Positions 2,644 to 14,862 of a DNA stretch of 64,000 nucleotides are shown here, piece after piece. A model generated the notes under the pieces. That model was not told where the DNA came from. It did not search any database and saw only the letters and a list, made by a program, of their open reading frames with translations. Source of the stretch: a virus (lineage: Duplodnaviria; Heunggongvirae; Uroviricota; Caudoviricetes); IMG/VR virus record IMGVR_UViG_3300037400_001691, positions 1 through 64,000 of that record. One strand, written 5' to 3'. The number at the start of each line of letters is the position of its first letter. Position 1 is the first letter of the stretch. The position numbers were made by a program, and so were the translations under genes.

Positions 2644-2648
2644 CTAAT

Positions 2649-2963
2649 ATGGCATAGAAAGAAATTCGTTATTGTGAAAAACATGGAAATACTGAGTTTG
2701 CTTTGTATAAAACTGGAAAAGATAGCACTAGATGGAGATGTCTAAAGTGCTAGACTGAAGCAACTTAGAAAAGAAGAGATAAAGTGAAATATATGGCAGT
2801 TGTTTATAAAGGAGGTAAATGTCAATGTTGTGGATACAATAAATATATAGGAGCTTTAGAATTTCACCATGTAGATCCAGAACAAAAAGATTTTGGAGTA
2901 TCATCATAGGGATATACCCATTCTTGGGATAAAGCTAAGAAAGATTTCGATGATAAATTTTAA
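2649..2963 (+). CDS. HNH homing endonuclease (C-terminally truncated) with four in-frame TAG codons
   Basis: Frame-0 translation reads ...YCEKHGNTEF...RWRCLKC*TEAT*KRRD...YKGGKCQCCGYNKYIGALEFHHVDPEQKDFGVSS*GYTHSWDKAKKDF. This is a classic Zn-finger plus HNH motif. The TAGs are at 2655, 2751, 2766 and 2907. There is no TAA or TGA inside and no frameshift. Confidence 0.6.
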
Positions 2964-3016
2964 CCTATTAATATCAGTTCGATTCTGTTTGGGCCCGCTA
3001 CTATAAAAATAATATC

Positions 3017-3769: not shown

Positions 3770-4035
3770 AAAAATTACTAATTTTACTAATAATGATGCT
3801 TAGTATTGGTATATTCGGTAATGTAAATCATCAAGCAACTTATTCTGGAAAACACGTTGAAATATATAAAAAATCTAATAACAAGTTAATTTTTGAAACC
3901 GATTCAGCTAAAAAAGCTTATACCAATAAAGACACAATCATTGTAAAAATGATTAACGGAAAGATTAAAAAATATTATCCTGAAAGTGAATATATATTTA
4001 AGTATTCAATTTCAAGTGTAAGATATTACGAATGA
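3766..4035 (+). CDS. small secreted/lipoprotein-like protein
   Basis: N-terminal hydrophobic signal MKKLLILLIMMLSIGIFG. Start overlaps the previous stop (ATGA). Confidence 0.5.
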   Translation: MKKLLILLIMMLSIGIFGNVNHQATYSGKHVEIYKKSNNKLIFETDSAKKAYTNKDTIIVKMINGKIKKYYPESEYIFKYSISSVRYYE

Positions 4036-4055
4036 CATAGATACAACATATAAAA

Positions 4056-4144
4056 GGAATACATACAGCAAATGTTTTTGGTTAATAAATAATACTGATT
4101 ATATTGTTTTAAGTGGTTCAAATCCATTACTTTTTTGTATTCCG
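4056..4144 (+). ncRNA. IR-flanked structured element (GGAATACA...TGTATTCC) with ACAGCAA motif and a T-arm-like hairpin; degenerate Y-RNA/tRNA-like unit U1
   Basis: The 8-bp terminal inverted repeat encloses 73 nt that contain AGTGG-TTCAAAT-CCATT. No acceptor pairing was found. Confidence 0.35.
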
Positions 4145-4149
4145 AATTT

Positions 4150-4222
4150 GCATCGTTGGTGTTAGTGATTAGCATATTGGACTTCCACTCCAAAGGCGAG
4201 AGTTTGAATCTCTTACGATGCT
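4150..4222 (+). tRNA. tRNA-Gly(UCC)
   Basis: Acceptor GCATCGT/ACGATGC 7/7. Anticodon stem TTGGA/TCCAA with loop CTTCCAC. T-arm GAGAG-TTTGAAT-CTCTT. Confidence 0.65.
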
Positions 4223-4281
4223 CTCGAATCCCCATTAGTCCCTGAATTTTTAATTCAAACTAGTGGGTATTGTTATCTTAA

Positions 4282-4357
4282 GGAGGTATAGCGTAGGTGG
4301 TTGTTGCGCGTGGGTCTGAAAAACCCAAGGCTTGTGGTTCAACTCCCAATGCCTCCA
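4282..4357 (+). tRNA. tRNA-Phe(GAA)
   Basis: Acceptor GGAGGTA/TGCCTCC. D-arm GCGT...GCGC. Anticodon stem TGGGT/ACCCA with loop CTGAAAA. The T-stem is imperfect. Confidence 0.55.
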
Positions 4358-4380
4358 CTAATTTTTAAAATTATATTATT

Positions 4381-4563
4381 ATGAGTTTCGATAAAGCAAT
4401 AGAATCTGGTAAAGAACATCGTAAGCAATTTAAAGGAGCAAAGTCTGTTTCTTATAGTTGTAGAAATCATGGTGAATGTCCGTGGTGTAGAAGTAACAGA
4501 TTGTATGGTAATAGAAAAAGAGAAATAAGATCTTTAATGGAAATTAGAGATTTTCTGTCATAG
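4381..4563 (+). CDS. small Cys-rich zinc-ribbon protein (60 aa)
   Basis: Contains SCRNHGECPWCRSN. The ORF ends with TAG immediately followed by TAA. Confidence 0.5.
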   Translation: MSFDKAIESGKEHRKQFKGAKSVSYSCRNHGECPWCRSNRLYGNRKREIRSLMEIRDFLS

Positions 4564-4574
4564 TAAAGAATAAA

Positions 4575-4753
4575 GAAAGCGTACAGCAAATTTTTATATT
4601 TTACCATTAAATTTATAATCCGAAATGTTGTGCAATTCATATAAAAGACTGATTGAATTGTGTTTTATACTCGTATAGAAGTTAAGCTATACTAAGGTGT
4701 GAGTCACTGATTTAGAAGAATAAAAGTTAAATTAAACTTATATTTCGCTTTCT
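4575..4753 (+). ncRNA. IR-flanked structured element U2 (AGAAAGCG...CGCTTTCT) with ACAGCAAA motif, 179 nt, several internal hairpins
   Basis: The terminal 8-bp inverted repeat is preceded by the same leader motif as U1 and U3-U6. Internal hairpins include CAATTCA/TGAATTG and GTATAG/CTATAC. Confidence 0.35.
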
Positions 4754-4759
4754 GTAAAC

Positions 4760-4830
4760 AGGTCCTTAGTTTAACGGTAAAACATTAGTCTCCAAAACTA
4801 AAGTTATTGGTTCGATTCCATTAGGGTCTG
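4760..4830 (+). tRNA. tRNA-Trp(CCA)
   Basis: Acceptor AGGTCCT/AGGGTCT with 2 G-U pairs. D-arm GTTT-AACGGTA-AAAC. Anticodon stem TTAGT/ACTAA with loop CTCCAAA. T-loop TTCGATT. Confidence 0.6.
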
Positions 4831-5136
4831 CTAAAAAATGTTAAACTATTTTGTTTTCATAATAAAGATATGTATATTTGAAGTGTTAATTAGGAACACA
4901 TACAACAAAATTAATTCATTACTCTGCGTTTTAGAGTTCATTGTGTTCCGTTATTTTAATTATTGATTATGGCTTATAAAAAAGATACAAGACAAAGAGT
5001 AAAAGTACTCAATTGTGACATTCCTTATCTTAAAGGAATGGTTGGTCGAGTAGAAAAAGTAAATGGGGATATTTACAATGTAATGGTAGGACCGATTGTT
5101 ATAGCATTACATAAAAGTAAAATTCAAATATTAAAT

Positions 5137-5208
5137 TGAGGTATAGTATAACGGTTAGTACAGTAAACTGATAATTTACAAACCTAAGTTCAACTCTTAG
5201 TACTTCAA
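5137..5208 (+). tRNA. tRNA-Ile(GAU)
   Basis: Acceptor TGAGGTA/TACTTCA. D-arm GTAT-AACGGTTA-GTAC. Anticodon stem GTAAA/TTTAC with loop CTGATAA. T-arm CTAAG-TTCAACT-CTTAG. Confidence 0.6.
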
Positions 5209-5216
5209 CTAATATC

Positions 5217-5285
5217 GCGGATGCAGTGTGATGGTCGCATTTAAGGCTCATAACCTTAAGGAGTAGTTCGATTCTAACATTCGCA
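5217..5285 (+). tRNA. tRNA-Met-like (CAU) with truncated/imperfect T-stem (possible pseudo-tRNA)
   Basis: Acceptor GCGGATG/CATTCGC. Anticodon stem TAAGG/CCTTA with loop CTCATAA. The T-loop TTCGATT has only a 3-bp stem. Confidence 0.4.
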
Positions 5286-5306
5286 ACTTATCTTCATGTT
5301 TTTTAA

Positions 5307-5421
5307 AGGAAACTTCAGCAAACAATTCTCCCACAGAATGTCGTTAGTTCGAATCTAACTCCCTCTGATAGAGGGATAGCTCAATTGGTTCAGAGCGTCT
5401 GTTTTATAAAAAATGTTTCCT
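5307..5421 (+). ncRNA. permuted tRNA-like element U3 (Y-RNA/YrlA-like): 3' tRNA half then 5' tRNA half, enclosed by IR AGGAAAC/GTTTCCT
   Basis: At 5333-5367 lie ACAGA-ATGTC-GTTAG-TTCGAAT-CTAAC-TCCCTCT-G. After the linker AT, 5370-5402 hold AGAGGGA-TA-GCTC-AATTGGTTCA-GAGC-G-TCTGT. The acceptor pairs 7/7 and the anticodon stem 5/5 between the halves. The leader contains CAGCAAA. Confidence 0.6.
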
Positions 5422-5427
5422 GTTTAA

Positions 5428-5545
5428 AGAAAACTAACAGCAATATTTAAATCCGTATCCTGGTGGTAACATGGGTTCGATTCCCTTCTCTACTGTAACA
5501 GGTAGTGTCGTCTAGTGGTAGGACGCCTTTTTTGAATAGTTTTCT
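5428..5545 (+). ncRNA. permuted tRNA-like element U4 (Y-RNA/YrlA-like), IR AGAAAACTA/TAGTTTTCT
   Basis: Leader ACAGCAA, then T-arm ATGGG-TTCGATT-CCCTT, then an acceptor-like hairpin CTCTACTG-TAA-CAGGTAG, then a Glu-like D-arm TCGTCTAGTGGTAGGAC. The inverted-repeat arms show compensatory changes relative to U5 and U6. Confidence 0.55.
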
Positions 5546-5552
5546 GTAATAT

Positions 5553-5636
5553 CGCGGTATAGTCTAATGGTAAGATGCGAGGCTCATAACCTTGAGACAG
5601 TAAATGCTTGTGTGGGTTCGATTCCCACTACCGCAA
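5553..5636 (+). tRNA. atypical tRNA, anticodon CAU, C1-A72 mismatch, 17-nt variable region
   Basis: Acceptor CGCGGTA/TACCGCA. D-arm GTCT-AATGGTA-AGAT. Anticodon stem CGAGG/CCTTG with loop CTCATAA. T-arm GTGGG-TTCGATT-CCCAC. Confidence 0.45.
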
Positions 5637-5725
5637 GGACACATAATCAAAACCTCCACGTGGTGTGTCTGGGTAATGCTAATTTGATTATAATTTGTTT
5701 AATTTAATTTATTTAGAATTGAATC

Positions 5726-6376
5726 ATGGCTTATATTTATTGTATTACAAATTTAATTAATGGAAAATAGTATGTAGGTAAAACTACATATTCTATTACA
5801 AAAAGATTTAAAGAACATTGCAGAGATTGTTCAAAAGAATGTGAAGAAAAAAGACCTTTATATGCTGCTATGAATAAATACGGTATAGAAAATTTTGTTG
5901 CAAAAGAACTTATAGAATGTGAAATAGATGAACTTAGTTCTTATGAAATTATGTTTATAGAAAAACTTCAAACATATGGAAAAAATGGATATAATGCAAC
6001 AAAAGGAGGTGATGGTTCTATATTATTTGATTATAATGAAATAGTTAATTTATATAAACAAGGAAAATCTATGACAGAAGTAGCTAGTATAATACATTGT
6101 TGTATTGATACTGTTTCTAAAGTAGTTCATTTATATAATTTACCTATAAATAAAATTATATCAGGTAGTTGTAAACAACCAAAAATTGTAATACAATTAA
6201 ATAAAGAAACAAAAGAAGAAATACAAATTTTTAATTCAGTTGCAGACGCTTCTCATTGGTTAGTTGATAATGGATATGCTAAAACATATAACGGAGGTGT
6301 TAGACAAAAAATTTGTAATTGTTGTAATGGAAAATCAAAATCAGCTTATAATTTTAAATGGAAATATAAGGAATAA
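5726..6376 (+). CDS. GIY-YIG homing endonuclease (free-standing) with one in-frame TAG
   Basis: Translation MAYIYCITNLINGK*YVGKTTYSITKRFKEHCRD...AAMNKYGIENF... carries the GIY-YIG motif with a TAG at 5768-5770. The ORF is otherwise intact through to TAA at 6374-6376. Confidence 0.7.
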
Positions 6377-6394
6377 TTCCCACTACCGCAATAT

Positions 6395-6466
6395 GGGGCA
6401 TTAGTGTAGAGGTCAGCACGTCAGATTTTCATTCTGGAGACTCGAGTTCGAATCTCGGATGCCCTA
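6395..6466 (+). tRNA. tRNA-Glu(UUC)
   Basis: Acceptor GGGGCAT/ATGCCCT. D-arm GTGT-AGAGGTCA-GCAC. Anticodon stem TCAGA/TCTGG with loop TTTTCAT. T-arm TCGAG-TTCGAAT-CTCGG. Confidence 0.6.
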
Positions 6467-6588
6467 CAAAGGTTCTTGCTTTTTCATCCTATAACGAAAA
6501 AGCCGTAGCAATTCGTCAATGCCGTAGGAATCCGTTAACTCCAATAAACTAGTTTGTGTAACTACACTCTTTGAGTGCAGTTCTTTTT

Positions 6589-6659
6589 GAGTGCTTGTCC
6601 GAGCGGTTAGGTAACGCTCTGTAAAAGCGAATACATTGGTTCAAATCCAATAGCACTCT
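6589..6659 (+). tRNA. tRNA-Tyr(GUA), short class-I form
   Basis: Acceptor GAGTGCT/AGCACTC 7/7. Anticodon stem CGCT/AGCG with loop CTGTAAA. T-arm ATTGG-TTCAAAT-CCAAT. Confidence 0.5.
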
Positions 6660-6805
6660 CAACCTCAGCTGACAAGAGCTAGATCTTGTTGACTTTTAAA
6701 TTCCGGGGCAACATGAAACGGAATAGGTTGGCTTACCTTAAAAAAGTACACGCATCAAAGATGTAAGAGATCCTACTCAGTGAGGTTTTAGAGTAGGATT
6801 TACTT

Positions 6806-6888
6806 GCCGGAATGGGACAGCGGTCGACTCCACTTGATTTGTAATCATGCTCTGAAAAGACACGTCGGTTCGAATCCGACTTCCGGCT
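6806..6888 (+). tRNA. class-II-like tRNA (83 nt, long variable arm), anticodon loop TTTGTAA reads UGU
   Basis: Acceptor GCCGGAA/TTCCGGC 7/7. D-stem GGA/TCC with an 11-nt loop. Anticodon stem CTTGA/TCATG with one mismatch. Variable hairpin. T-arm GTCGG-TTCGAAT-CCGAC. Confidence 0.45.
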
Positions 6889-6909
6889 CAAACAATTAAT
6901 TTTAATAGT

Positions 6910-7458
6910 ATGGTAGATAATAACAAAATCATTCATTTGTTTATTACAAACAAATGTACACATAATTGTAAAAATTATTGTAATAAACAGTATGACATTG
7001 ACAAAATTTCTGTAATTACTGTAGATGAATTAAAATATGCAGATACAGTTTTACTAACAGGTGGTGAACCATTTATGTTAGTTGATTATCTTGAGGATTT
7101 TGCTAAGATGTTAAAGCATGGTTTCACAAATATTAAACAACTTTATGTTTATACTTATGGAGATTCTCTTTATAAATATTTACAGAAGGGTAAAACACTT
7201 GATGTATTTGATGGAGTAAATATAGCTCCTAAAAATAAATATGATGCAGAATGTACTAATAGCATTCTTAAATATAGAAAAGATGATATACTTTCTTTAG
7301 CATCAAGTCGTTTATATATCTTCCCAGAAATGAACGATTATATTCCTACTTACGATTTATATGGATATAGTAATTTTGAAGTTATTCATAGAAAATGGCA
7401 AGAGGAATTTGTACCAGATTCTGGAATATTTAGAAGACTTCCTATTTTATTTGAATAA
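6910..7458 (+). CDS. radical-SAM-like protein (CX3CX3C variant plus GGEP motif)
   Basis: Contains NKCTHNCKNYC and LLTGGEPF. Confidence 0.45.
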   Translation: MVDNNKIIHLFITNKCTHNCKNYCNKQYDIDKISVITVDELKYADTVLLTGGEPFMLVDYLEDFAKMLKHGFTNIKQLYVYTYGDSLYKYLQKGKTLDVFDGVNIAPKNKYDAECTNSILKYRKDDILSLASSRLYIFPEMNDYIPTYDLYGYSNFEVIHRKWQEEFVPDSGIFRRLPILFE

Positions 7459-7553
7459 GTGTTCATATTTGTATAATTAAAGGTTACATATAGCAAACTT
7501 ATTATCAGCAACAAACTTGTAATTTGTCACGCTTTACCTTGTAACCTGTATTT

Positions 7554-7626
7554 GTGACCTTAGCTCAGATGGTAGAGCTACGGATTTTTAATCCATCGGG
7601 CATGGGTTCAAGTCCCATAGGTCACA
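7554..7626 (+). tRNA. tRNA-Lys(UUU)
   Basis: Acceptor GTGACCT/AGGTCAC 7/7. D-arm GCTC-AGATGGTA-GAGC. Anticodon loop TTTTTAA. T-arm ATGGG-TTCAAGT-CCCAT. Confidence 0.65.
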
Positions 7627-7644
7627 CATTAAAACTATTAAAAT

Positions 7645-8685
7645 ATGAGTGAAAAGAATTGGACGTGTAAATATGCACATCATGGAAGACGTAATGGTGA
7701 AGGATTCCCACGTCATGCACTAAAGGATTTTGATGGTACTCATATTAGTATGGGTATGTTACGTTCTTATAAATCCAAATATTCTTGGGATTATCGAAAT
7801 TATCCAGCAATTACAAATAAGTATATTGTAGGTTTATTAGATAAATATGTTGGTAAATCTTATGATGATTTTAAACTTGCTTTTGATCAAAGGACTAAAA
7901 ATCTTTATAAGAAATATCCTATAGAATGGGGTAAGATTTCTGATTACTTACTTGATAAGCCACAAGAATATTATCGTCGTATTACATTTTATCTTGACAA
8001 AAACAATATAATTAGAAGATGCAAGAAATTAAAATATAGAACTTGGAAACTTCCAACTCTTAGTAAAACTCAAAAACATTTTAATGAAAGAGTTAAACTT
8101 CCAGAATGGGGACAAGTAAGAACTGATTCTCGATTTGACGTTGATCATGATTCTTTTTCTACTATGCCTGATAAGTTTAAAGAACCTTTATTACTTGGAA
8201 CATTTTATGTTATTGTAAATGATAAGATTTGTAAACTTCCTGTTTATACTTGTAATAAAGAAATATTTAAAACATATTCAACTTATCGTGATGAAAAATG
8301 GGATAGTAAAAAGAGACGTTATATTAAAACTCCATTTTGGAAATCAGATGCTTGGAATTGTAAACTTATAAATCCTGCTAAAAGAAAGAAAATAGCAGAA
8401 CAATGGATTCCTGTTGATGTTTACACATTACCAAAATTAAAACATGATTTTTGGTGTGAAGCTAAACATAAAGACAGATATAATCTGGAAGAACGTATTG
8501 AAAATCTTAATAATAAAATCAATATAACATTAAATTTTGATATTAGATTGGAATTAATTGGTGATAGAAATAAATTAATTCACCAACTTAATGAACTTCC
8601 AGAAACTGCTTGTTACAATCTTGGATATGGTCGATATTATCCATTTGTAAAAGTATCTGATTACGAAAAGTTTTGTAAAAAATAA
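7645..8685 (+). CDS. hypothetical protein (346 aa)
   Basis: Long ORF with no recognisable motif. Confidence 0.6.
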   Translation: MSEKNWTCKYAHHGRRNGEGFPRHALKDFDGTHISMGMLRSYKSKYSWDYRNYPAITNKYIVGLLDKYVGKSYDDFKLAFDQRTKNLYKKYPIEWGKISDYLLDKPQEYYRRITFYLDKNNIIRRCKKLKYRTWKLPTLSKTQKHFNERVKLPEWGQVRTDSRFDVDHDSFSTMPDKFKEPLLLGTFYVIVNDKICKLPVYTCNKEIFKTYSTYRDEKWDSKKRRYIKTPFWKSDAWNCKLINPAKRKKIAEQWIPVDVYTLPKLKHDFWCEAKHKDRYNLEERIENLNNKINITLNFDIRLELIGDRNKLIHQLNELPETACYNLGYGRYYPFVKVSDYEKFCKK

Positions 8686-8699
8686 TTTTAAGTGTTTAA

Positions 8700-8816
8700 A
8701 GAATACTAACAGCAACTTAATTAGCACTTGTAATGCCGTGTCGGAGGTTCGATTCCTCCTCTTACTTTTAATTGAGAAAGATAGTTTAGTGGCAAAACAC
8801 GTAATTATAGTATTCT
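8700..8816 (+). ncRNA. permuted tRNA-like element U5 (Y-RNA/YrlA-like), IR AGAATACTA/TAGTATTCT
   Basis: After the IR comes the ACAGCAAC bulge, then a second helix TTAATTA/TAATTA. The T-arm is GGAGG-TTCGATT-CCTCC. The 3' acceptor-like strand TCTTACT pairs 6/7 with the downstream AGAAAGA. A D-arm GTTT-AGTGGCA-AAAC follows. Confidence 0.55.
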
Positions 8817-8835
8817 GTTTTTAAAATTAATAAAA

Positions 8836-9030
8836 ATGAAAAAAGTAATTTTTTGGATTATTGTGAAAAATTGTATTATAGTTGTACTTGTTGCAATTAT
8901 TATTGGTTTAATGGTATATTATAATCATATGCGTGAGGAATATCAAAAGAAAGAAAATACATTAATAATGATGTATAATTCTAAATGTAATCACGCTCAA
9001 ATTGATTACAAACTATTAAGAAGTTATTAA
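8836..9030 (+). CDS. small membrane protein (1 TM)
   Basis: Hydrophobic segment IIVVLVAIIIGLMVYY. Confidence 0.45.
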   Translation: MKKVIFWIIVKNCIIVVLVAIIIGLMVYYNHMREEYQKKENTLIMMYNSKCNHAQIDYKLLRSY

Positions 9031-9032
9031 TA

Positions 9033-9206
9033 TGAAAAGTAATTTTGACGGATTATTAGCAATGATTATAATTGCTACAGCTTGTGTTTTAGTTACAATG
9101 AGTATTTTTTATAATAATATTGAGCAACGTATCGAAACACTTCAACAACAAAATGATTCTCTTAAACAAGAAATTGTTTTATTAAATAATTATTTATATG
9201 ATTAAA
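9033..9206 (+). CDS. small membrane/coiled-coil protein (57 aa)
   Basis: ORF MKSNFDGLLAMIIIATACVLVTMSIFYNN... with an ATG start. Confidence 0.4.
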
Positions 9207-9407
9207 TATGTTAAACCTGAAATACAATTAATAATATCAGATTCTGAAGATTTGATGATTAGTTCACAAGAACATTTACCAGATATTCAATCTGATGTTC
9301 ACGAATGTTGTCCTGCTTGTGATCCAAATGGTTATTGGCATTGCGATCATTCTAGAGCATGGGGTAACAAAGGATCACAATATGGAAAATGTGATAGATG
9401 TAATTAA
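9198..9407 (+). CDS. small Cys/His-rich protein
   Basis: Contains CCPACDPNGYWHCDH...CDRCN. Confidence 0.45.
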   Translation: MIKYVKPEIQLIISDSEDLMISSQEHLPDIQSDVHECCPACDPNGYWHCDHSRAWGNKGSQYGKCDRCN

Positions 9408-9411
9408 CATG

Positions 9412-9485
9412 GTGTCGTTAACTTAATTGGCTAAAGGCGGTGACTGTGAATCACTGAGATATCGGTTCGAATCCGTTGCGATACT
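9412..9485 (+). tRNA. tRNA-His(GUG)
   Basis: Acceptor GTGTCGT/GCGATAC with 2 G-U pairs, and a G at -1. Anticodon stem GGTGA/TCACT with loop CTGTGAA. T-loop TTCGAAT. Confidence 0.55.
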
Positions 9486-9503
9486 ACATCATATGTATTG
9501 TAA

Positions 9504-9643
9504 AGAATACTAACAGCAAAATTATTTAAAAACTGTTTTCTCCGTTGTGCGAAAGGCGCGTATAGGTTCGAATCCTATCATTAGGTAATTACTCCTAATG
9601 TGGTGGAATTGGTAGACACGATGGATTGTTTTAATAGTATTCT
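9504..9643 (+). ncRNA. permuted tRNA-like element U6 (Y-RNA/YrlA-like), IR AGAATACTA/TAGTATTCT
   Basis: Leader ACAGCAAA and a second helix TTTAAAAAC/GTTTTAA. T-arm TATAGG-TTCGAAT-CCTATC. Acceptor-like hairpin ATTAGG-TAATTACT-CCTAAT. D-arm GTG-GAATTGGTAGA-CAC. Confidence 0.55.
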
Positions 9644-9798
9644 GTTTTTGGAGGGTTGACAGAGTGATTTATTGCACCAGACTACTAATCTGGCAGTCGT
9701 CATTTTACAGGTTTACTTTGGCCATTTTTAGTAGTTATATTCCTACTTTGGCTTTGGGGTAAGTTTTGTACAAAAATTTCTAAAAAGATTTTGAAACA

Positions 9799-10017
9799 AT
9801 GATTATATTTTTTATATTTATCTATCTTTTAGGTTCAACAATTTTTGCTGGATATTTCTTCAGTAAATTTGAGCCAAATGATTTCATGGCTCAATCTTCT
9901 GCAATATTTTTAGGATTATTATGGATTTTTATAATTCCTTTAATAATAATGTGGTGTACATTATATTATCCTACAAAATATTTCGGTAATTTGTTTGATA
10001 AACTTAACAATAAATAA
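9799..10017 (+). CDS. small membrane protein (2 TM)
   Basis: Hydrophobic ORF. Confidence 0.45.
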   Translation: MIIFFIFIYLLGSTIFAGYFFSKFEPNDFMAQSSAIFLGLLWIFIIPLIIMWCTLYYPTKYFGNLFDKLNNK

Positions 10018-10023
10018 ATTTTA

Positions 10024-10108
10024 GGAGTTGCTGCTCGGATGGTGGACGGGCACCGGACTGTAAATCCGGCACATAGAAACACCGTAGGTTCGAATCCTAC
10101 CAACCCCA
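10024..10108 (+). tRNA. tRNA-Tyr(GUA), class II (bacterial type)
   Basis: Acceptor GGAGTTG/CAACCCC with one mismatch. Anticodon stem CCGGA/TCCGG with loop CTGTAAA. 14-nt variable arm. T-arm GTAGG-TTCGAAT-CCTAC. Confidence 0.6.
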
Positions 10109-10124
10109 CTAAAAATTTAACACT

Positions 10125-10691
10125 ATGAGTTATTATCATTATTTTAAATTAAAGGATGAAAGTAAATATCAGAAAGAAGATGCTTTAAGAGAACTTAAGT
10201 TTAAATATACATCTTCAGATAAAGATAAAATTCTATTAAAAGTAAGTATGATTAAAGCTTATTATGAAAATAAGATTGAAAATAATTATACTGATATTTT
10301 TTGTAGAGTTAAACTCTTAGCATCTGATATAGAAAAAAATTGTCTTCTTTCTTTAGTAAAAGAGATTAAAGAAAAAGGAGAAATAGAGAGAAATAGACCT
10401 CACGATGAATATGAAATGGAACAAATAGTAAATTCTTATGATGAAGATATAAATAGAATTATTGAAAATCTTCTTATATTATCTACTATTAGATTTGTTC
10501 CAGATAATGAATATTCAGACACTCCTAAAACGGAAATGGATTATTTGAGATATGAATATATTACTCAAATTAATTACGAATTAGAAACGTTAGAAGATAC
10601 AGTTCTCGATTACACTTTTTCTAAATTTGTATTAGAAGAATGTAATAGAGAAACAGAATCTGAAAGGAGTTCATCAGAAGACTTAGAATAA
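10125..10691 (+). CDS. hypothetical acidic protein (188 aa)
   Basis: ORF with no recognisable motif. Confidence 0.55.
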   Translation: MSYYHYFKLKDESKYQKEDALRELKFKYTSSDKDKILLKVSMIKAYYENKIENNYTDIFCRVKLLASDIEKNCLLSLVKEIKEKGEIERNRPHDEYEMEQIVNSYDEDINRIIENLLILSTIRFVPDNEYSDTPKTEMDYLRYEYITQINYELETLEDTVLDYTFSKFVLEECNRETESERSSSEDLE

Positions 10692-10705
10692 GTCTTCTGT
10701 AAATT

Positions 10706-10780
10706 AGGATCATAGTTCAGTTGGTCAAGAACATCTGGCTTACATCCAGAAGATCATCGGTTCGAATCCGATTGATCCTA
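10706..10780 (+). tRNA. tRNA-Val(UAC)
   Basis: Acceptor AGGATCA/TGATCCT 7/7. D-arm GTTC-AGTTGGTCAA-GAAC. Anticodon stem TCTGG/CCAGA with loop CTTACAT. T-arm ATCGG-TTCGAAT-CCGAT. Confidence 0.65.
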
Positions 10781-10787
10781 CAATTAT

Positions 10788-10874
10788 GCACCTATGGCGC
10801 AAATGGATGAGACGCACCACACTTAGAATGTGGAAACCGAAAGGTTTGTAAGAGTTCGACTCTCTTTAGGTGCA
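10788..10874 (+). tRNA. tRNA-Leu(UAG), class II
   Basis: Acceptor GCACCTA/TAGGTGC 7/7. Anticodon stem CCACA/TGTGG with loop CTTAGAA. Variable hairpin AAACC-GAAA-GGTTT. T-arm AAGAG-TTCGACT-CTCTT. Confidence 0.65.
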
Positions 10875-10876
10875 CT

Positions 10877-11098
10877 ATGAATATAATATATTGGAATCCT
10901 AAAGAACATAAAAGATATAAATTTTATACTTTATGTTTAAAGTTTCCATTTGGAAAGAAGTGGAAACAATATTGGTTTTGTAAAAGATGTAATTTTATAA
11001 ATAAACCTCTTTTAGACGCAATGAGAAATCTCCCATTAACAAAACCCAATTTTAAAGAAATTGAATTTGAAGATTTTACTTGGGAAATAATTAGATAA
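10877..11098 (+). CDS. hypothetical protein (73 aa)
   Basis: ORF with no recognisable motif. Confidence 0.45.
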   Translation: MNIIYWNPKEHKRYKFYTLCLKFPFGKKWKQYWFCKRCNFINKPLLDAMRNLPLTKPNFKEIEFEDFTWEIIR

Positions 11099-11100
11099 TT

Positions 11101-11514
11101 ATGAAGAAACTTATTTTATTATTGATGCTCTTATTATCTATAGGAGTATATGCACAGGTAACAACTCATGTTACACTTACATATTACCAACCTGTAGTGG
11201 AACAGTGTAATTCTGATCCATTAACAACTGCAGACGGTAGTAAAATAAATTTACATCATCTTAAACAAGGGAAAATTAAATGGTGTGCAATCAGCAGAGA
11301 TTTATTATATCTTTTCCCGAAAGATGAACCAAAACGTATTTACATTGAGGGATTTGGAGTTTATGAAGTTCGTGATGTAATGAATAAAAGATTTCATCAT
11401 CGAGTAGATATTCTCATTCATCCCAAAAATAGTGTAAGAGTTAAATTAGATAGAGTTAAAATTAAAATTTTGAGTAGTCACAGAAATGTGAATCGTAACC
11501 ACAAGAAACATTAG
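11101..11514 (+). CDS. secreted 3D-domain-like (cell-wall-binding/lytic transglycosylase-like) protein
   Basis: Signal peptide MKKLILLLMLLLSIGVYAQ. The TYYQ...QC...DPLTTADGS...IEGFGVYEVRD pattern resembles 3D-domain proteins. The ORF ends with TAG. Confidence 0.45.
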   Translation: MKKLILLLMLLLSIGVYAQVTTHVTLTYYQPVVEQCNSDPLTTADGSKINLHHLKQGKIKWCAISRDLLYLFPKDEPKRIYIEGFGVYEVRDVMNKRFHHRVDILIHPKNSVRVKLDRVKIKILSSHRNVNRNHKKH

Positions 11515-11796
11515 CACGTTTGCCCAAGACATTAATTATCTGCACAATCGTAGTTGATGGCTAACAGACTTGGAGACCATCGTATTGGTACAGAGTTATC
11601 CCACTCTCGGAGTATAAGGGAACCCAAGTTTACCACTACTTTATTAATATATGAAGCTAACATAGTATATTAAATAAAGGTGAAAGACTATAAAGGCGCA
11701 CTATTGTCACAATAGATGAAAATCTGGCGGTAAACTTATTAATTTTTATTTATAATTATATATAAAAGGTTGTACGATACCTTAAATCGTACATTT

Positions 11797-11870
11797 GGGC
11801 TTTGTGGTGTAACTGGCTAACACACCTCCCTTGCAAGGAGGAGTTTAGGGTTCAAATCCCTCATCGTCCA
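11797..11870 (+). tRNA. tRNA-Ala(UGC)-like with imperfect acceptor (G3-U70 present)
   Basis: Anticodon stem CCTCC/GGAGG is perfect, with loop CTTGCAA. T-loop TTCAAAT. The acceptor GGGCTTT/ATCGTCC has two mismatches. Confidence 0.45.
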
Positions 11871-11961
11871 CTTTTGTTTTTTTCATTTGCATATATTTTT
11901 CCCAATGACCTTTTAATAAGGTTGTTGGGGTTTTTGTTAAGTAACTAATAATTTTTACAAA

Positions 11962-12192
11962 ATGACTAAAAAAGATATATTAAGAGGAGCAGGAATACTC
12001 AGAAAGGAGCAACCTTGCTTAAGGAAAGGACAAGCAGTTTTTAATTATGTAGATATGCATCCAGAACTTTTCAAAAATGCTGCACGTATATCTCAGTTTA
12101 ATTATGGAATTGATTGTTTCTATAATGATGATATAATTGATCAATTTATTGATCAAGTTCTTGAAATATTAAACAATGATTTTATAGACTAA
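11962..12192 (+). CDS. hypothetical protein (76 aa)
   Basis: ORF with no recognisable motif. Confidence 0.45.
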   Translation: MTKKDILRGAGILRKEQPCLRKGQAVFNYVDMHPELFKNAARISQFNYGIDCFYNDDIIDQFIDQVLEILNNDFID

Positions 12193-12319
12193 TGTTATGA
12201 CCTTTGGACAAGCAATAGAAGAACTTATTCAAAACGAGAAATTTCGACATTTGTTTTCTCCTAAATTATATTATAATTATCTTATTGGTGATTGAAATAT
12301 ATTAAATAATTTTCAATAA

Positions 12320-12394
12320 AAGACGCATGATGACCAAGTGGCTATGGTGACAGGTAACGTTCCCAACGATGGTTCGAATCCATCCTTGCGTCTT
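12320..12394 (+). ncRNA. tRNA-like element: 8-bp terminal stem AAGACGCA/TGCGTCTT, D-arm-like CCA-AGTGGCTA-TGG and canonical T-arm GATGG-TTCGAAT-CCATC, but no canonical anticodon arm
   Basis: Hand fold. Confidence 0.35.
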
Positions 12395-12954
12395 AATTTG
12401 GGGGTATTTGGATTTGATTGCTAAGAGAAGCAAAGAAATCACGCAAAGGCAGTTGGAAAGACAACAAATAAAATTTAAACGGAAATAACACAGTTACATT
12501 CCGTATCGCTGCTTAATTGAATTAGATTAAGTACGATACCCGGGAAACACAGGATACTTACCGAGGAACAGAAATAGTATTCATCGCTGGCATCGGCAGT
12601 AATTAAACGAGCAAAAGTTTTATTAGTTTTCACAAAACTAATTGGTGGAGCTAACATTCAGTTAGCCTAAAGAAGAAAACTTTTAAAAATTGAAAAGCGT
12701 GTACAAATTTCGATGATATTTTAGTAAGACGAGGGTTTAATAGTTGGACCAGCTATAAAGTGATTTATAGTTAAAAACATCGGATGAATTCAGGGAACGC
12801 TAAAAAATAAAGCTCAAGATAAGCTTTATTTCATGCTAATCCTGAGCTAAACATAGAGTACACTCTATGAAAGTGCAACGACTATTGGAGAACTACAGTG
12901 TTCTTAATTACCAACTTGAGCGTCCGACATCTCATTAAGAGATGATGATATAGT

Positions 12955-13518
12955 CTAATCTTCTATGAAAGTAGAAGTATAGGAAGAAATCTGTTTTAAA
13001 AATTTTTTAGTTTCTAAATCAGACATTTGTTGTTTCATTAAATTAATAGGAGTTGATACAAATTGAACATTACCTTTTATGTAACCTTTAGATGAATCAA
13101 TTCTATCTAAAGATGCTCGATAAATTATATTTAAATCATTTATATTATTATCTTCTGGTAATGTTAATTTAAGATTAGTATAAGGACATATTCCATTTTG
13201 TTGTTCCCATATTAATTTTAAATATTCTAAATCTATATTTATTTCTTTAGATCTACGTTTTATACATCTCATTGTATATCTAAAAGGACTAAATTCATCT
13301 CTTCTATTTCCAGAATGTTGTGAAATATCATATTTATCATTTGATAATGATAAATTTTTATTAGATTTTCCAGAACAAATTCTAGAACAATAATTTTTTC
13401 TTCCTAATTTAACATTTCTATTATATTCGGAAAGTGGTTTTTGAAATTCTTTACCACAACAATCACAAATTAATGTGATTAATTTTCGATTTTTACAATA
13501 ATCTTTTAAAATTTCCAT
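12955..13518 (-). CDS. HNH homing endonuclease (Zn-finger N-terminus, SLDRIDSSKGYIKGNVQFV HNH motif)
   Basis: Minus-strand ORF of 187 aa with CxxC pairs and the HNH signature. Confidence 0.65.
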   Translation of the reverse strand: MEILKDYCKNRKLITLICDCCGKEFQKPLSEYNRNVKLGRKNYCSRICSGKSNKNLSLSNDKYDISQHSGNRRDEFSPFRYTMRCIKRRSKEINIDLEYLKLIWEQQNGICPYTNLKLTLPEDNNINDLNIIYRASLDRIDSSKGYIKGNVQFVSTPINLMKQQMSDLETKKFLKQISSYTSTFIED

Positions 13519-13737
13519 AATTTTTTATTTTATTTAATATATGTATATATAAGAAATTTATGTGGATACTTATAATTTTTATTGTTAATAAATGTTAATT
13601 TTGCGACTCCCTCTACCTCCACAAGAAAACGATAATTATCTATAATGTTTAATTTTTAATTACGGACGTAAGGAGCGTCCTTCTTAAATTACATATAATT
13701 ACCATCAAATTATCGTTTTCTTTTTAATTTAAAAATT

Positions 13738-13953
13738 ATGTTAGATATTTTATCATTTATCGCAATGGCATTATCATTGCTTGGAAACATTCTTTTAGTA
13801 AAGAAAATCATTTGGGTATTCCCAATTTGGATTATAGCGAATGTAACATGGATTGTTGTGAATTTTATGAGTACTCCTAATATTTCACAAATAATTATGT
13901 TTGTAGTTTATACCATACTTGCTATGATAAGTTGGTATCAATGGAAAAAATAA
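13738..13953 (+). CDS. small membrane protein (2 TM)
   Basis: Hydrophobic ORF. Confidence 0.45.
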   Translation: MLDILSFIAMALSLLGNILLVKKIIWVFPIWIIANVTWIVVNFMSTPNISQIIMFVVYTILAMISWYQWKK

Positions 13954-14035
13954 AAATAATGCTCCCATAGTCAATTAGATACTTATAAATCTAAAAATAA
14001 AAACGGAGATAAATCTTATTATCGTTATCACAAAT

Positions 14036-14119
14036 GGGAGGTGGGCAGGGTTGAATAATGCACCGGTCTTCTAAACCGGAGTCTTTTAGACATGATGGGT
14101 TTGAATCCCATACCTCCTA
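14036..14119 (+). tRNA. class-II (Ser-like) tRNA with anticodon loop CTTCTAA, reading UCU
   Basis: Acceptor GGGAGGT/ACCTCCT. Anticodon stem CCGGT/ACCGG is perfect and almost identical to the E. coli tRNA-Ser anticodon arm. Variable hairpin GTCT-TTT-AGAC. T-arm ATGGG-TTTGAAT-CCCAT. Confidence 0.5.
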
Positions 14120-14297
14120 CATTTTTATTGATGTAGGTTCGATTCCTACTGGGAGTACTATTTTAGGTAGTGATTTAACATTTATTAACAAATTTGTTGA
14201 TTTACATCAATTTAAATTTTTTTGAAAATAAAAATCAAATTATTATATTTGATTAGAAATTTTAGATAAACAGTTTATTAATTAAAAATTTAAAAAA

Positions 14298-14473
14298 ATG
14301 AAAAAGTTGTTATTTGCATTTGTTATGTGCATGAGTATTGTACTTGTAAGTTGCGGTTCTGGCGCAGTAACATCAGTAAGTGATAATGATTCTATCGACA
14401 CAGTATCTTATGATACTATTGATACCATTGTTCTTGATACAGTGGGTGTTGATACAACCATTTGTATTGATTA
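14298..14473 (+). CDS. small lipoprotein (58 aa)
   Basis: Signal peptide with lipobox MKKLLFAFVMCMSIVLVSCGSG. Confidence 0.45.
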
Positions 14474-14643
14474 ATTTATTAAAAGAAAGGATTTATTATG
14501 AAGAAATTGTGTAATCTAGTGAAAGCAGGAATTAAATTTTATGGAAGAAATCTCAAAAACTTTACGAAGTTAATCGTTATTCCTGAAGGAGCTTGCTATG
14601 CACAGTAATTCCTGTACAATGGTAGTTTAATACTACCAACAAT

Positions 14644-14712
14644 GTCCCATGGTGTAATGGTAGCACATCAGATTTTGGTTCTGACGGTCAAGGTTCGAAT
14701 CCTTGTGGGACA
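14644..14712 (+). tRNA. tRNA-Gln(UUG)
   Basis: Acceptor GTCCCAT/GTGGGAC. Anticodon stem TCAGA/TCTGA with loop TTTTGGT. T-arm AAGG-TTCGAAT-CCTT. Confidence 0.55.
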
Positions 14713-14862
14713 ACAATTAACTTTTAAAAAGAAAGGAGTTTAATTATGAAAAAAATCAAAGCTTTATTTATTAGTGCTATTACTATCGCTGCTTGCATGT
14801 ATTCATTTTACATCGTAGCATAGTAATGCTTTTTTAATCGAATTTTATTAACTTTAAATATA

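What the first reader, a model, noticed from the sequence alone, without database searches (positions are those of the whole stretch)
14036..14119. Class-II (Ser/Leu/Tyr-like, long-variable-arm) tRNA bodies carrying anticodons of class-I amino acids
tRNA 14036-14119 has a body almost identical to E. coli tRNA-Ser around the anticodon arm (CCGGTCTxCTAAACCGGAG) but its loop is CTTCTAA, anticodon UCU, which normally reads Arg AGA/AGG. Similar mismatches occur at 2558-2643 (class-II body, anticodon GUU), at 6806-6888 (class-II, anticodon UGU) and at 5553-5636 (anticodon CAU with C1-A72 and a 17-nt variable region). A 5' fragment at 9651-9725 has loop CTACTAA. SerRS and LeuRS ignore the anticodon. 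If these tRNAs are expressed and charged they would insert Ser or Leu at AGR, AAY, ACN or AUG codons. That would be either a deliberate host-proteome-corrupting or codon-reassigning device, or decoys for anticodon-nuclease defences. There are also two tRNAs with anticodon GUA: a 71-nt class-I-like form at 6589 and a class-II form at 10024.
Basis: partly seen in the sequence, partly recalled or inferred. Interest (0 to 1): 0.7.

Follow-up and report, generated by a model that had tools for sequence, protein, structure and literature searches.

The report
Extra-arm tRNAs in a phage array
A large AT-rich phage carries four tRNAs (Arg, Asn, Thr, initiator-like Met) with an extra hairpin arm normally seen only in Ser/Leu/Tyr tRNAs; they belong to conserved tRNA families that most likely carry the amino acid their anticodon specifies, so they are probably not a miscoding device.

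Summary
ARAGORN and Rfam call tRNAs at 14036-14120 (UCU), 2558-2644 (GUU), 6806-6889 (UGU) and 5552-5637 (CAU, C1xA72), each with a 14-17 nt variable arm.

The miscoding interpretation is not supported.
- Each tRNA has homologues elsewhere. T5-like phages carry the Asn form. Sinorhizobium phages and the chromosomes of Spirosoma, Kiritimatiellia and Eremiobacterota carry the Thr form. Bacteroides crAss-like phages carry the Met form. A diverged metagenomic contig carries the Arg form.
- Stems covary in these families, including the extra arm, which is typically 1 nt, a 3-4 bp stem, a GNRA loop, then 3-4 nt.
- Positions read by synthetases outside the anticodon mostly fit the anticodon's amino acid. 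Thr has G1-C72/C2-G71. Asn has G73. Met has C1xA72/G2-C71/C3-G70. Arg has A20/A73. None has the Ser pattern (G2-C71, A3-U70, stem of 4-6 bp).
- The phage's own genes use AGA, AAY, ACA and AUG at conserved Arg, Asn, Thr and Met positions.

The core (D-arm plus extra arm) is class-II-like in three of the four, so charging still needs an experiment. The role of the arm is unknown; escape from tRNA-cleaving defences is plausible but untested. The short GUA tRNA at 6589 is a tRNA-Cys with a mutated anticodon.

The parts
14036..14120 (+). tRNA-Arg(UCU) with extra arm. Acceptor GGGAGGT/ACCTCCT, A73. 3-bp D-stem GCA/TGC, 11-nt D-loop GGGTTGAATAA (G18, A19, A20). Extra arm A-GTC-TTTTA-GAC-ATG. T-loop TTTGAAT (U56).
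   Evidence: Identical gene in L067 and L071. Diverged homologue at L066 53-135 with compensated acceptor, T and extra-arm stems and G19:C56 in place of A19:U56.
2558..2644 (+). tRNA-Asn(GUU) with extra arm C-TAGT-GAAA-GCTA-CACC. G73. Ser-like D-arm TGGCCGAGTGGACGATGGCA. A30·C40 and U50·U64 mismatches.
   Evidence: L054 orthologue has G30-C40 and a C-G pair in the extra stem. Full-length match to the tRNA-Asn of T5-like phage Stitch. 40 distinct long-arm Asn(GUU) sequences in the pooled dataset, nearly all from IMG/VR viral contigs.
5552..5637 (+). Initiator-like tRNA-Met(CAU): C1xA72, G2-C71, C3-G70, A73, class-I D-arm, 17-nt extra arm.
   Evidence: Homologues in Bacteroides phage PhiCrAssBcn22 (L061 2502-2586) and bajarodcaudo virus (L062 2501-2588). 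7 of 20 pairs show compensatory changes.
6806..6889 (+). tRNA-Thr(UGU) with extra arm C-TCT-GAAA-AGA-CAC. G1-C72, C2-G71, C3-G70, U73.
   Evidence: Family of 47 distinct viral and 37 distinct genomic sequences with the same architecture. RNAalifold predicts the extra stem, with 10, 9 and 4 double changes at its three pairs.
6589..6660 (+). 72-nt tRNA with anticodon GUA on a tRNA-Cys body (U73, 4-nt variable loop). This is an anticodon shift, C35 to U.
   Evidence: Alignment with tRNA-Cys(GCA) of L054, L048 and L055.
10024..10109 (+). Ordinary class-II tRNA-Tyr(GUA), A73, 14-nt variable region.
   Evidence: acceptor-end classifier gives Tyr 0.59.
10788..10875 (+). Ordinary class-II tRNA-Leu(UAG), A73, 5-bp extra stem with GAAA loop.
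9650..9705 (+). 5' fragment (acceptor 5' strand to the 5' strand of the extra arm) of a tRNA-Ser(ACU). Truncated pseudogene.
   Evidence: Alignment with the intact L048 11213-11302.
14131..14158 (+). T-arm plus 3' acceptor fragment of another tRNA, just downstream of tRNA-Arg.
   Evidence: Sequence read. Motif scan.
2558..14714 (+). The whole array of 18 tRNA genes, interspersed with homing-endonuclease-like ORFs. No gene encodes CCA.

Best explanation
The four genes are functional members of naturally occurring extra-arm variants of tRNA-Arg(UCU), tRNA-Asn(GUU), tRNA-Thr(UGU) and an initiator-like tRNA-Met(CAU).

Each combines a class-II-style core with the acceptor-end, discriminator and anticodon determinants of the amino acid its anticodon specifies. 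In three of them the core has both an extra hairpin arm and an enlarged D-loop. In the Met tRNA it has only the extra arm.

Inferred, not shown: ArgRS, AsnRS, ThrRS and MetRS charge them. They decode AGA, AAY, ACA and AUG normally. They supply the A/U-rich codons that this 29% GC phage uses heavily.

The extra arm is a small hairpin, typically one unpaired nt, a 3-4 bp stem, a GNRA tetraloop and 3-4 unpaired nt. It is tolerated by the translation machinery, as it is in tRNA-Tyr.

Its purpose is not established. The Thr form is native to several bacterial phyla, so the arm may simply be inherited. A plausible added benefit in phages is that the altered shape makes the tRNA a poor substrate for host tRNA-cleaving defence nucleases.
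For: Shown:
- Gene calls and cloverleaves.
- Orthologues are retained in a relative whose flanking DUF7788 protein is 90% identical (L054). The Arg gene is 100% identical in relatives L067 and L071, which are 94-97% identical elsewhere and differ at 5 mismatches and 1 gap in the ~82 nt of flanking sequence.
- Thr family: 47 viral and 37 genomic distinct sequences. 2-71 is C-G in 46/47 and 36/37, against G-C in 60/65 tRNA-Ser. U73 is found in 37/37 genomic members. The window gene has the same G1-C72, C2-G71, C3-G70 and U73.
- The extra stem covaries. It far exceeds shuffled controls: 32/47 hairpin-plus-tetraloop against a shuffle mean of 4.3, and 22 GNRA loops against 0.11.
- The Thr gene sits beside aconitase, PEPCK and IMPDH in a Kiritimatiellaeota genome.
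- Asn family: 40 distinct sequences, G73 in 38/40, U1-A72 in 25/40 (never seen in tRNA-Ser). It includes cultured T5-like phages.
- Met: C1xA72, G2-C71 and A73 are invariant, 3-70 is C-G or U·G, and 7 pairs are compensated across three lineages, including a cultured Bacteroides crAss-like phage.
- Arg: the nucleotide after G18-G19 is A in 73/77 phage tRNA-Arg, against 4/66 tRNA-Ser. The homologue L066 keeps A20 and A73 while its acceptor, T and extra stems and the 19:56 tertiary pair all change in a compensatory way.
- Acceptor-end classifier gives P(Ser) <=0.05 for all four.
- Codon test: AGA aligns to R in 6/7 conserved columns, AAY to N in 17/18, ACA to T in 4/5, ATG to M in 6/6.
- These are the phage's main codons and its only tRNAs for them.

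From the literature: identity rules come from PMC9976931. A20, C35, U36 and A/G73 mark Arg. The anticodon plus G73 mark Asn. Acceptor pairs plus the anticodon mark Thr. The anticodon marks Met. The extra arm plus G1-C72/G2-C71 mark Ser.
Against: - No aminoacylation or expression data exist.
- The window's Asn gene is the most Ser-like of the four. It has a D-arm 16/20 identical to E. coli tRNA-Ser, G73, G1-C72 and G2-C71. It also has an A·C mismatch in the anticodon stem and a U·U mismatch in the T-stem.
- The Arg gene has the unusual G8 and G14. Rfam's general tRNA model does not score it; it gets only a sub-threshold tRNA-Sec hit.
- The full-body classifier assigns Asn, Thr and Arg of this window weakly to Ser or Leu.
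- U73 occurs in 20/65 phage tRNA-Ser, so U73 in the Thr gene does not by itself exclude SerRS.
- The codon test uses only two protein families, and the counts are small.
- The host and its synthetases are unknown.
Confidence: 0.7

Rival explanations
1. Mischarging device. SerRS or LeuRS recognises the class-II core and extra arm regardless of anticodon. Ser or Leu is then inserted at AGR, AAY, ACN or AUG codons, either to damage host proteins or to recode.
For: Three of the four have a class-II-type D-arm plus extra arm. The Arg 5' half is 84% identical to T4-like tRNA-Ser. The Asn D-arm, G73 and G1-C72/G2-C71 are Ser-compatible. The full-body classifier leans to Ser or Leu at low confidence. 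The window has no tRNA-Ser gene. Precedents exist: allo-tRNAs are serylated with non-Ser anticodons (PMC5389517), and nematode nev-tRNAs are another case (own knowledge).
Against: None has A3-U70, which 57/65 phage tRNA-Ser have. Arg and Met have A73, found in 1/65 tRNA-Ser. Thr has C2-G71. The extra stems are 3-4 bp with 3-4 nt 3' spacers, whereas Ser has stems of 4-6 bp in 57/65 and spacers of 0-2 nt in 55/65. Close Asn relatives with the same D-arm have U1-A72 or U2-A71. The Thr family is the chromosomal tRNA-Thr(UGU) form in whole bacterial clades. LeuRS needs A73 (73/73 long-arm phage tRNA-Leu have it); Thr has U73 and Asn has G73. The phage's own conserved residues use these codons in the standard sense, and the cognate codons are about 13% of all its codons.
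Confidence: 0.08
2. Non-translating decoys or decaying pseudogenes. The genes are transcribed (or not) but do not serve as adaptors. They soak up tRNA-targeting nucleases, or they are relics in an array that is being shuffled by homing endonucleases.
For: The array holds clear debris: a 5' tRNA-Ser fragment at 9650, a 3' fragment at 14131, other stray T-arm hairpins, and a tRNA-Cys with a mutated anticodon. The window's Asn has two mismatched pairs. Arg has G8/G14 and A19:U56. Literature suggests phage tRNA can act as a decoy or supplement against Septu and retron-Eco7 (PMC13096335).
Against: All helices are kept through compensatory changes across distant homologues. The 19:56 change in Arg is itself compensated. 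Identity determinants are conserved, which a pure decoy would not need. These are the only phage tRNAs for very abundant codons. The relative whose flanking protein is 90% identical keeps three of them, and there the Asn stems are fully paired apart from the U50·U64 T-stem mismatch it shares with the window gene.
Confidence: 0.1
3. Nuclease-resistant substitutes. This concerns the purpose of the arm and is compatible with cognate charging. The extra arm and altered elbow were selected in phages because they block docking or cleavage by host tRNA-targeting defence or toxin nucleases aimed at tRNA-Asn, -Arg, -Thr or -fMet. Translation then continues after host tRNAs are destroyed.
For: Extra-arm versions of at least 17 class-I isotypes turn up in unrelated phage arrays: 127 of 1164 unique tRNAs that passed the parsing filters, although the Asn and Thr counts are inflated by the targeted searches. 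An Rnl2-type RNA ligase lies 1.5 kb from the array. [quoted passage not shown] VapC toxins target initiator tRNA and colicins E5 and D target Asn and Arg tRNAs (own knowledge).
Against: The Thr form is native and chromosomal in several bacterial phyla, so the arm does not need a phage-specific explanation. Closest relatives of this phage at 69% protein identity carry ordinary 72-74 nt Asn, Thr and Met tRNAs. No nuclease that targets these tRNAs in the unknown host is identified.
Confidence: 0.25

Closest known systems
Bacterial class-II tRNAs (Ser, Leu, Tyr), especially tRNA-Tyr
   Same: 3-bp D-stem, enlarged D-loop and a base-paired extra arm. The geometry of one unpaired nt, a 3-bp stem, a 4-nt loop and 3 unpaired nt matches phage tRNA-Tyr (5' spacer of 1 nt in 24/32 and 3' spacer of 3 nt in 20/32).
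   Different: Anticodons, discriminators and acceptor pairs are those of Arg, Asn, Thr and Met. The loops are mostly GNRA, against 3/32 in Tyr. The Met member keeps a class-I D-arm.
allo-tRNAs (Mukai et al., PMC5389517)
   Same: Bacterial and phage tRNAs with a long extra arm and non-Ser anticodons, including UCU/CCU and UAU.
   Different: allo-tRNAs have an 8/4 or 9/3 acceptor/T-stem split, a Sec-like D-arm and G73/U73 Ser identity, and they are serylated or alanylated in E. coli. The window's tRNAs are canonical 7/5 and lack the Ser acceptor pattern.
Nematode nev-tRNAs (Hamashima et al.; cited as ref. 8 in PMC5389517; details from own knowledge)
   Same: An extra arm on tRNAs with Gly or Ile anticodons.
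   Different: They are eukaryotic and charged with Leu through Leu determinants. Here the Leu determinant A73 is absent in Asn and Thr.
Phage tRNAs that escape tRNA-targeting defences (PMC10264068, PMC11555353, PMC13096335)
   Same: Phage-encoded tRNA variants in large arrays next to homing endonucleases. A distinctive variable loop confers resistance in T5 tRNA-Tyr.
   Different: The described escapes involve anticodon-loop substitutions or a variant arm in a tRNA that is class II anyway. Adding an arm to class-I isotypes has not been described in the papers I could search.
Bacterial initiator tRNA-fMet
   Same: CAU anticodon, C1xA72 mismatch, G2-C71, C3-G70, G4-C69, A73, G30-C40 and G31-C39.
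   Different: 17-nt extra arm. A29-U41 instead of the third G-C pair. U11-A24 instead of A11-U24.

Membership tests
tRNA-Ser (SerRS substrate), applied to 14036-14120 | Extra arm with a long stem (4-6 bp in 57/65 phage tRNA-Ser) and 0-2 unpaired nt on its 3' side | tested here: not met
   Arm is A-GTC-TTTTA-GAC-ATG (3 bp, or 4 bp with a triloop) with a 3-nt 3' spacer..
tRNA-Ser (SerRS substrate), applied to 14036-14120 | G1-C72, G2-C71, A3-U70 and G73 (or U73) | tested here: not met
   G1·U72, G2-C71, G3-C70, A73. Ser set: A3-U70 in 57/65, A73 in 1/65. Acceptor-end classifier P(Ser)=0.01.
tRNA-Arg (ArgRS substrate), applied to 14036-14120 | A20 in the D-loop, C35, U36 or G36, A73 or G73 (PMC9976931) | tested here: met
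   C35, U36 and A73 are read directly. A20 is assigned by homology: the D-loop GGGTTGAATAA aligns with GGGCTGGATAA of L066. A follows G18-G19 in 73/77 phage tRNA-Arg.
tRNA-Arg (ArgRS substrate), applied to 14036-14120 | Actual arginylation | not testable with these tools
   Needs a charging assay.
Extra-arm tRNA-Thr(UGU) family (phages; Spirosoma, Kiritimatiellia, Eremiobacterota chromosomes), applied to 6806-6889 | G1-C72, C2-G71, C3-G70 (or U-A), U73, and a 13-16 nt arm of 1 nt / 3 bp / tetraloop (mostly GNRA) / 3 nt | tested here: met
   Window: GCC.../...GGC, U73, arm C-TCT-GAAA-AGA-CAC..
tRNA-Asn (AsnRS substrate), applied to 2558-2644 | Anticodon GUU plus G73 (PMC9976931) | tested here: met
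   Both are present. G73 in 38/40 long-arm Asn. G73 is also Ser-compatible, so this test is not exclusive.
Bacterial initiator tRNA-fMet, applied to 5552-5637 | C1xA72 mismatch with G2-C71 and C3-G70 (formylation determinants; own knowledge) | tested here: met
   CGCGGTA.../...TACCGCA-A. C1xA72 and G2-C71 are invariant in four sequences. C3-G70 holds in the window and L054 and is U·G in the two crAss-type homologues.
Bacterial initiator tRNA-fMet, applied to 5552-5637 | Three consecutive G-C pairs 29-41, 30-40 and 31-39, and A11-U24 (own knowledge) | tested here: not met
   A29-U41, G30-C40, G31-C39 and U11-A24. Initiator function is therefore uncertain.
allo-tRNA | 8/4 or 9/3 acceptor/T-stem arrangement (PMC5389517) | tested here: not met
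   All four fold as 7/5.
tRNA-Leu (LeuRS substrate) | A73 (73/73 long-arm phage tRNA-Leu) | tested here: inconclusive
   Asn (G73) and Thr (U73) fail. Arg and Met have A73, but the acceptor-end classifier gives P(Leu) 0.03 and 0.07.

The most novel reading that the evidence does not exclude
Extra-arm versions of class-I tRNAs (Thr, Asn, Arg, initiator-like Met, and also Cys, Trp, Ile, Lys and Pro in other phages) form a widespread structural class that is not described in the literature I could search. They carry a small, usually GNRA-capped hairpin. On this reading phages deploy them as shape-shifted, cognately charged tRNAs that escape host tRNA-cleaving defences. At least one member here (Asn or Arg) might also have dual identity and be partly serylated.
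Probability: 0.25. Interest if true: 0.75.

Novelty: new variant of a known kind. Interest (0 to 1): 0.45.

Why it matters
[quoted passage not shown] Here, covariation-supported families of tRNA-Thr, -Asn, -Arg and an initiator-like tRNA-Met break that rule in phages. For Thr the rule is also broken in the chromosomes of several bacterial phyla.

This bears on three things: how synthetases, modification enzymes and defence nucleases tell tRNAs apart; how automated annotation handles such genes; and the search for naturally orthogonal tRNA scaffolds. T5-family phages carry the Asn form, so the question can be tested directly in E. coli.

It also shows that a class-II-looking body with a class-I anticodon is not in itself evidence of recoding.

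Tried and rejected
- Protein-based searches of IMG/VR with the 346-aa ORF, the RNA ligase and the DUF7788 protein found no close relative. The only INPHARED nucleotide match was a mobile endonuclease shared with crAss phage cr128_1, so the window is not shown to be crAss-like.
- Two exact-protein look-ups only returned the same sample.
- Two IMG/VR pattern scans were wasted on mis-specified patterns.
- A blastn search of the Arg tRNA against E. coli genomes gave nothing at this database size.
- The promoter scan was uninformative: 94 sites found against 83 expected.
- ARAGORN with intron search found no intron-split tRNA around the group I intron.
- A low-threshold 'tRNA-Stop(tta)' at 9488-9587 was rejected as a poor fold.
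- The HDV-like ribozyme hit after the Met tRNA (24.5 bits) is absent from relatives and is probably chance.
- RNAalifold on only two Arg sequences mis-folded the D and anticodon region, so for Arg I rely on the acceptor and T-stem counts and on reading the arms directly.
- The A19:U56 T-loop is not a shared derived mark of Ser ancestry. The window's tRNA-Gly has it too.

Full report
**What is there**

The window has 29% G+C and comes from a large uncultured phage. Contigs of relatives reach 112-181 kb. ARAGORN finds 18 tRNA genes on the + strand between 2558 and 14714, and Rfam confirms them. Four combine a long variable region with an anticodon of a class-I isotype:
- Asn(GUU), 2558-2644
- Met(CAU), 5552-5637
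- Thr(UGU), 6806-6889
- Arg(UCU), 14036-14120

The cloverleaves have 7/5 acceptor/T stems. Asn, Thr and Arg have a 3-bp D-stem (four pairs counting a G·U in Asn) with a 9-11 nt D-loop, which is class-II style. Met has an ordinary 4-bp D-stem with a 7-nt loop.

The Arg anticodon arm is identical to that of E. coli tRNA-Ser(UGA) except at positions 35-36. The same arm also occurs in 41 IMG/VR loci, mostly as ordinary 73-78 nt phage tRNA-Arg(UCU). It therefore says nothing about identity.

**Relatives**

The phage family is absent from IMG/VR and INPHARED but present in SRA and JGI assemblies.
- A relative whose flanking DUF7788 protein is 90% identical (L054) keeps the extra-arm Asn, Met and Thr genes. 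In its Asn gene the window's A30·C40 is G-C, and the U·G pair in the extra stem is C-G.
- Two JGI contigs that are 94-97% identical to the window (L067, L071) carry an identical Arg gene. Their ~82 nt of flanking sequence differ at 5 mismatches and 1 gap.
- Relatives at 69% protein identity (L047, L048, L055) have ordinary 72-74 nt Asn, Thr and Met genes. Extra-arm and ordinary versions are therefore exchanged within one phage family.

**Each gene belongs to a wider family**

- **Asn.** It aligns end to end with the annotated 83-nt tRNA-Asn of T5-like Salmonella phage Stitch, whose arm is GTC-GAAA-GAC-AAC. A pattern scan and ARAGORN gave 40 distinct extra-arm tRNA-Asn(GUU) sequences, nearly all from viral contigs.
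- **Thr.** It aligns with the annotated tRNA-Thr of Sinorhizobium phages phiM12, phiM7, phiM19 and phiN3. A scan that put no constraint on the arm sequence gave 47 distinct viral versions. Most hits are single tRNA genes on chromosomes of Spirosoma, Kiritimatiellia, Eremiobacterota and Lentisphaerae (58 of 78 loci with tRNA calls have no other tRNA within 8 kb). In a Kiritimatiellaeota genome the gene lies next to aconitase, PEPCK and IMPDH.
- **Met.** It is 81% identical to an unannotated gene of the cultured Bacteroides crAss-like phage PhiCrAssBcn22 and is related to one in bajarodcaudo virus.
- **Arg.** It has a diverged homologue (L066, 83 nt). A second, separate extra-arm Arg(UCU) lineage exists in L064, L068 and L073.

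**Structure is under selection**

- **Thr.** RNAalifold on 24 sequences predicts the cloverleaf plus the extra stem. 17 of 25 pairs show compensatory changes, including 10, 9 and 4 double changes at the three extra-stem pairs. A hairpin closed by a tetraloop at the expected place occurs in 32/47 sequences, against a shuffle mean of 4.3 and maximum of 11. GNRA loops occur in 22, against a mean of 0.11 and maximum of 3. The typical layout is 1 nt, 3 bp, GNRA, 3-4 nt. That is the geometry of tRNA-Tyr. tRNA-Ser instead has 4-6 bp stems and 0-2 nt on the 3' side.
- **Met.** 7 of 20 pairs are compensated, and C1, A72 and A73 are invariant.
- **Arg.** The window gene and L066 differ by compensatory changes at four acceptor pairs, one T-stem pair and all three extra-stem pairs. 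The tertiary 19:56 pair changes from G:C to A:U together.

**Identity**

I used 1191 unique phage tRNAs as the reference set.
- **Thr.** Extra-arm Thr has G1-C72 in 44/47 and C2-G71 in 46/47, like ordinary Thr. tRNA-Ser has G2-C71 in 60/65 and A3-U70 in 57/65.
- **Asn.** Extra-arm Asn has G73 in 38/40 and U1-A72 in 25/40. U1-A72 never occurs in tRNA-Ser. The closest relatives of the window's Asn share its Ser-like D-arm but have U1-A72 or U2-A71.
- **Arg.** The base after G18-G19 is A in 73/77 tRNA-Arg and in 4/66 tRNA-Ser. The window's Arg keeps A20, assigned by homology with L066, and has A73. A73 is seen in 1/65 tRNA-Ser.

These are the determinants listed in PMC9976931.

A logistic classifier blind to the anticodon and to the extra arm reached 80% cross-validated accuracy and 97% recall for Ser. 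It assigns most extra-arm tRNAs to the isotype of their anticodon: Thr 30/47, Asn 23/40, Met 6/7, Arg 4/5. It is undecided for this window's Thr (Leu 0.56, Thr 0.30), Asn (Ser 0.34, Tyr 0.27) and Arg (Ser 0.27). That reflects their class-II-type D-arms.

Restricted to acceptor stem, N73 and N20, the classifier has 91% recall for Ser. It then gives P(Ser) <=0.05 and P(Leu) <=0.08 for all four, with Thr (0.50) and Met (0.44) assigned correctly and Arg and Asn ambiguous.

The honest description is a chimera: a class-II core with a class-I acceptor end and anticodon.

**Decoding in the phage's own genes**

I looked at alignment columns that are at least 80% conserved among homologues of the RNA ligase and the DUF7788 protein. 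AGA aligns with R in 6/7 columns, AAT and AAC with N in 17/18, ACA with T in 4/5, and ATG with M in 6/6. AGA is 57% of Arg codons. AGA, AAY, ACA and ATG together are about 13% of all codons in the window's ORFs. These four tRNAs are the phage's only tRNAs with those anticodons. A Ser- or Leu-inserting tRNA would hit the phage's own proteins hardest.

**Most likely mechanism**

Shown: the genes are conserved, structurally constrained tRNAs whose identity positions match their anticodons.

Inferred: they are charged by the cognate synthetases and supply abundant A/U-ending codons.

The function of the extra arm is open.
- The Thr form is native to several bacterial phyla, so the arm need not be a phage invention.
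- Against that, extra-arm forms of at least 17 class-I isotypes recur in unrelated phage arrays.
- An Rnl2-type RNA ligase lies next to the array.
- Published work shows that phage tRNA variants escape tRNA-cleaving defences, in one case through a distinctive variable loop (PMC10264068, PMC11555353, PMC13096335).

I rate nuclease escape at about 0.25, miscoding at about 0.08, and decoy or pseudogene at about 0.1.

**Comparison with known systems**

These are not allo-tRNAs, which are 8/4 or 9/3 and Ser-identity (PMC5389517). They are not nev-tRNAs, which are eukaryotic and Leu-identity. The Met gene meets the formylation determinants of an initiator but lacks the third G-C pair and A11-U24. 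Eight literature searches found no description of extra-arm Thr, Asn, Arg or Met tRNAs in bacteria or phages, although GenBank annotates some of these genes simply as tRNA-Asn or tRNA-Thr.

I therefore class the finding as a new variant of a known kind. It is of moderate interest, and the spectacular reading is set aside.

Noticed in passing
window 6589-6660: The 72-nt tRNA with anticodon GUA is the orthologue of tRNA-Cys(GCA) in relatives (U73, 4-nt variable loop). It differs by C35 to U plus one compensated anticodon-stem pair. The window then has no tRNA-Cys gene. If CysRS still charges it, this tRNA, unlike the flagged ones, would be a true candidate for Cys-at-UAY miscoding. More likely it is a recent loss of function.
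   Followed up: partly
window 9650-9705 and 14131-14158; L048 11213-11302: The array contains tRNA debris: a 5' fragment of a tRNA-Ser with the unusual anticodon ACU (intact in relative L048), and a T-arm plus 3' acceptor fragment directly after tRNA-Arg.
   Followed up: partly
window 5426-5443, 8698-8715, 9502-9519 (exact); 4054, 4572, 24945 (3 mismatches): The repeated motif AAAGAAWACTAACAGCAA has 6 matches against 0.59 expected. At 4054, 5426, 8698 and 9502 a T-arm-like hairpin that lies outside any called tRNA follows 48-63 nt downstream. This is an unexplained family of tRNA-derived elements or small RNAs.
   Followed up: partly
window 5306-5425 and 392-2146; L054 9582-9696: There is a YrlA-like (Y RNA-like, tRNA-like module) match at 38.8 bits, below the gathering score of 69. 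It is conserved in a close relative (flanking DUF7788 protein 90% identical) at 31 bits. It lies 3 kb downstream of a DUF2828/DUF7788 protein that PHROGs calls 'RNA-binding protein'. This may be a Ro/Y-RNA-type pair. No PDB sequence match was found.
   Followed up: partly
window 12222-13993: A group I intron (12728-12977, 96 bits) sits with an HNH endonuclease ORF (12955-13518, minus strand) in a 1.8-kb block. The block is absent from relatives L067 and L071, which are 94-97% identical elsewhere. The host gene of the intron was not identified.
   Followed up: no
window 15650-16642: A T4 Rnl2-type RNA ligase (Pfam RNA_ligase plus T4_Rnl2_C) lies 1.5 kb downstream of tRNA-Arg. That would fit repair of cleaved tRNAs.
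   Followed up: no
window 14036-14120, 4150-4223; L054 11349-11441; L066 53-135: The tertiary D-loop/T-loop pair 19:56 is not fixed as G:C in these phages. It is A19:U56 in the window's Arg and Gly, and C19:G56 (T-loop TTGGAGT) in tRNA-Ser(UGA) of relatives. The change is always compensated. The Arg family also has G8 and G14 instead of U8 and A14.
   Followed up: partly
window 2558-14714: None of the 18 tRNA genes encodes CCA. Sixteen end with the discriminator followed by C; the two tRNA-Met(CAU) calls (5217-5285, 5552-5637) do not.
   Followed up: no
L002, L019, L029, L137 (IMG/VR): 91-93 nt tRNA-Ile(UAU) genes have a class-I D-arm and a long extra arm whose loop shares the motif CAGAT(T/A)A. 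This is a separate conserved extra-arm family. Many phage tRNA-Leu conversely lack the long arm (39 of 120).
   Followed up: no
window 5217-5285: A 69-nt tRNA(CAU) with a 3-bp D-stem and a shortened T-stem is conserved in all relatives (L047, L048, L054, L055). Whether it is an elongator Met or a lysidine-dependent Ile is unknown.
   Followed up: no
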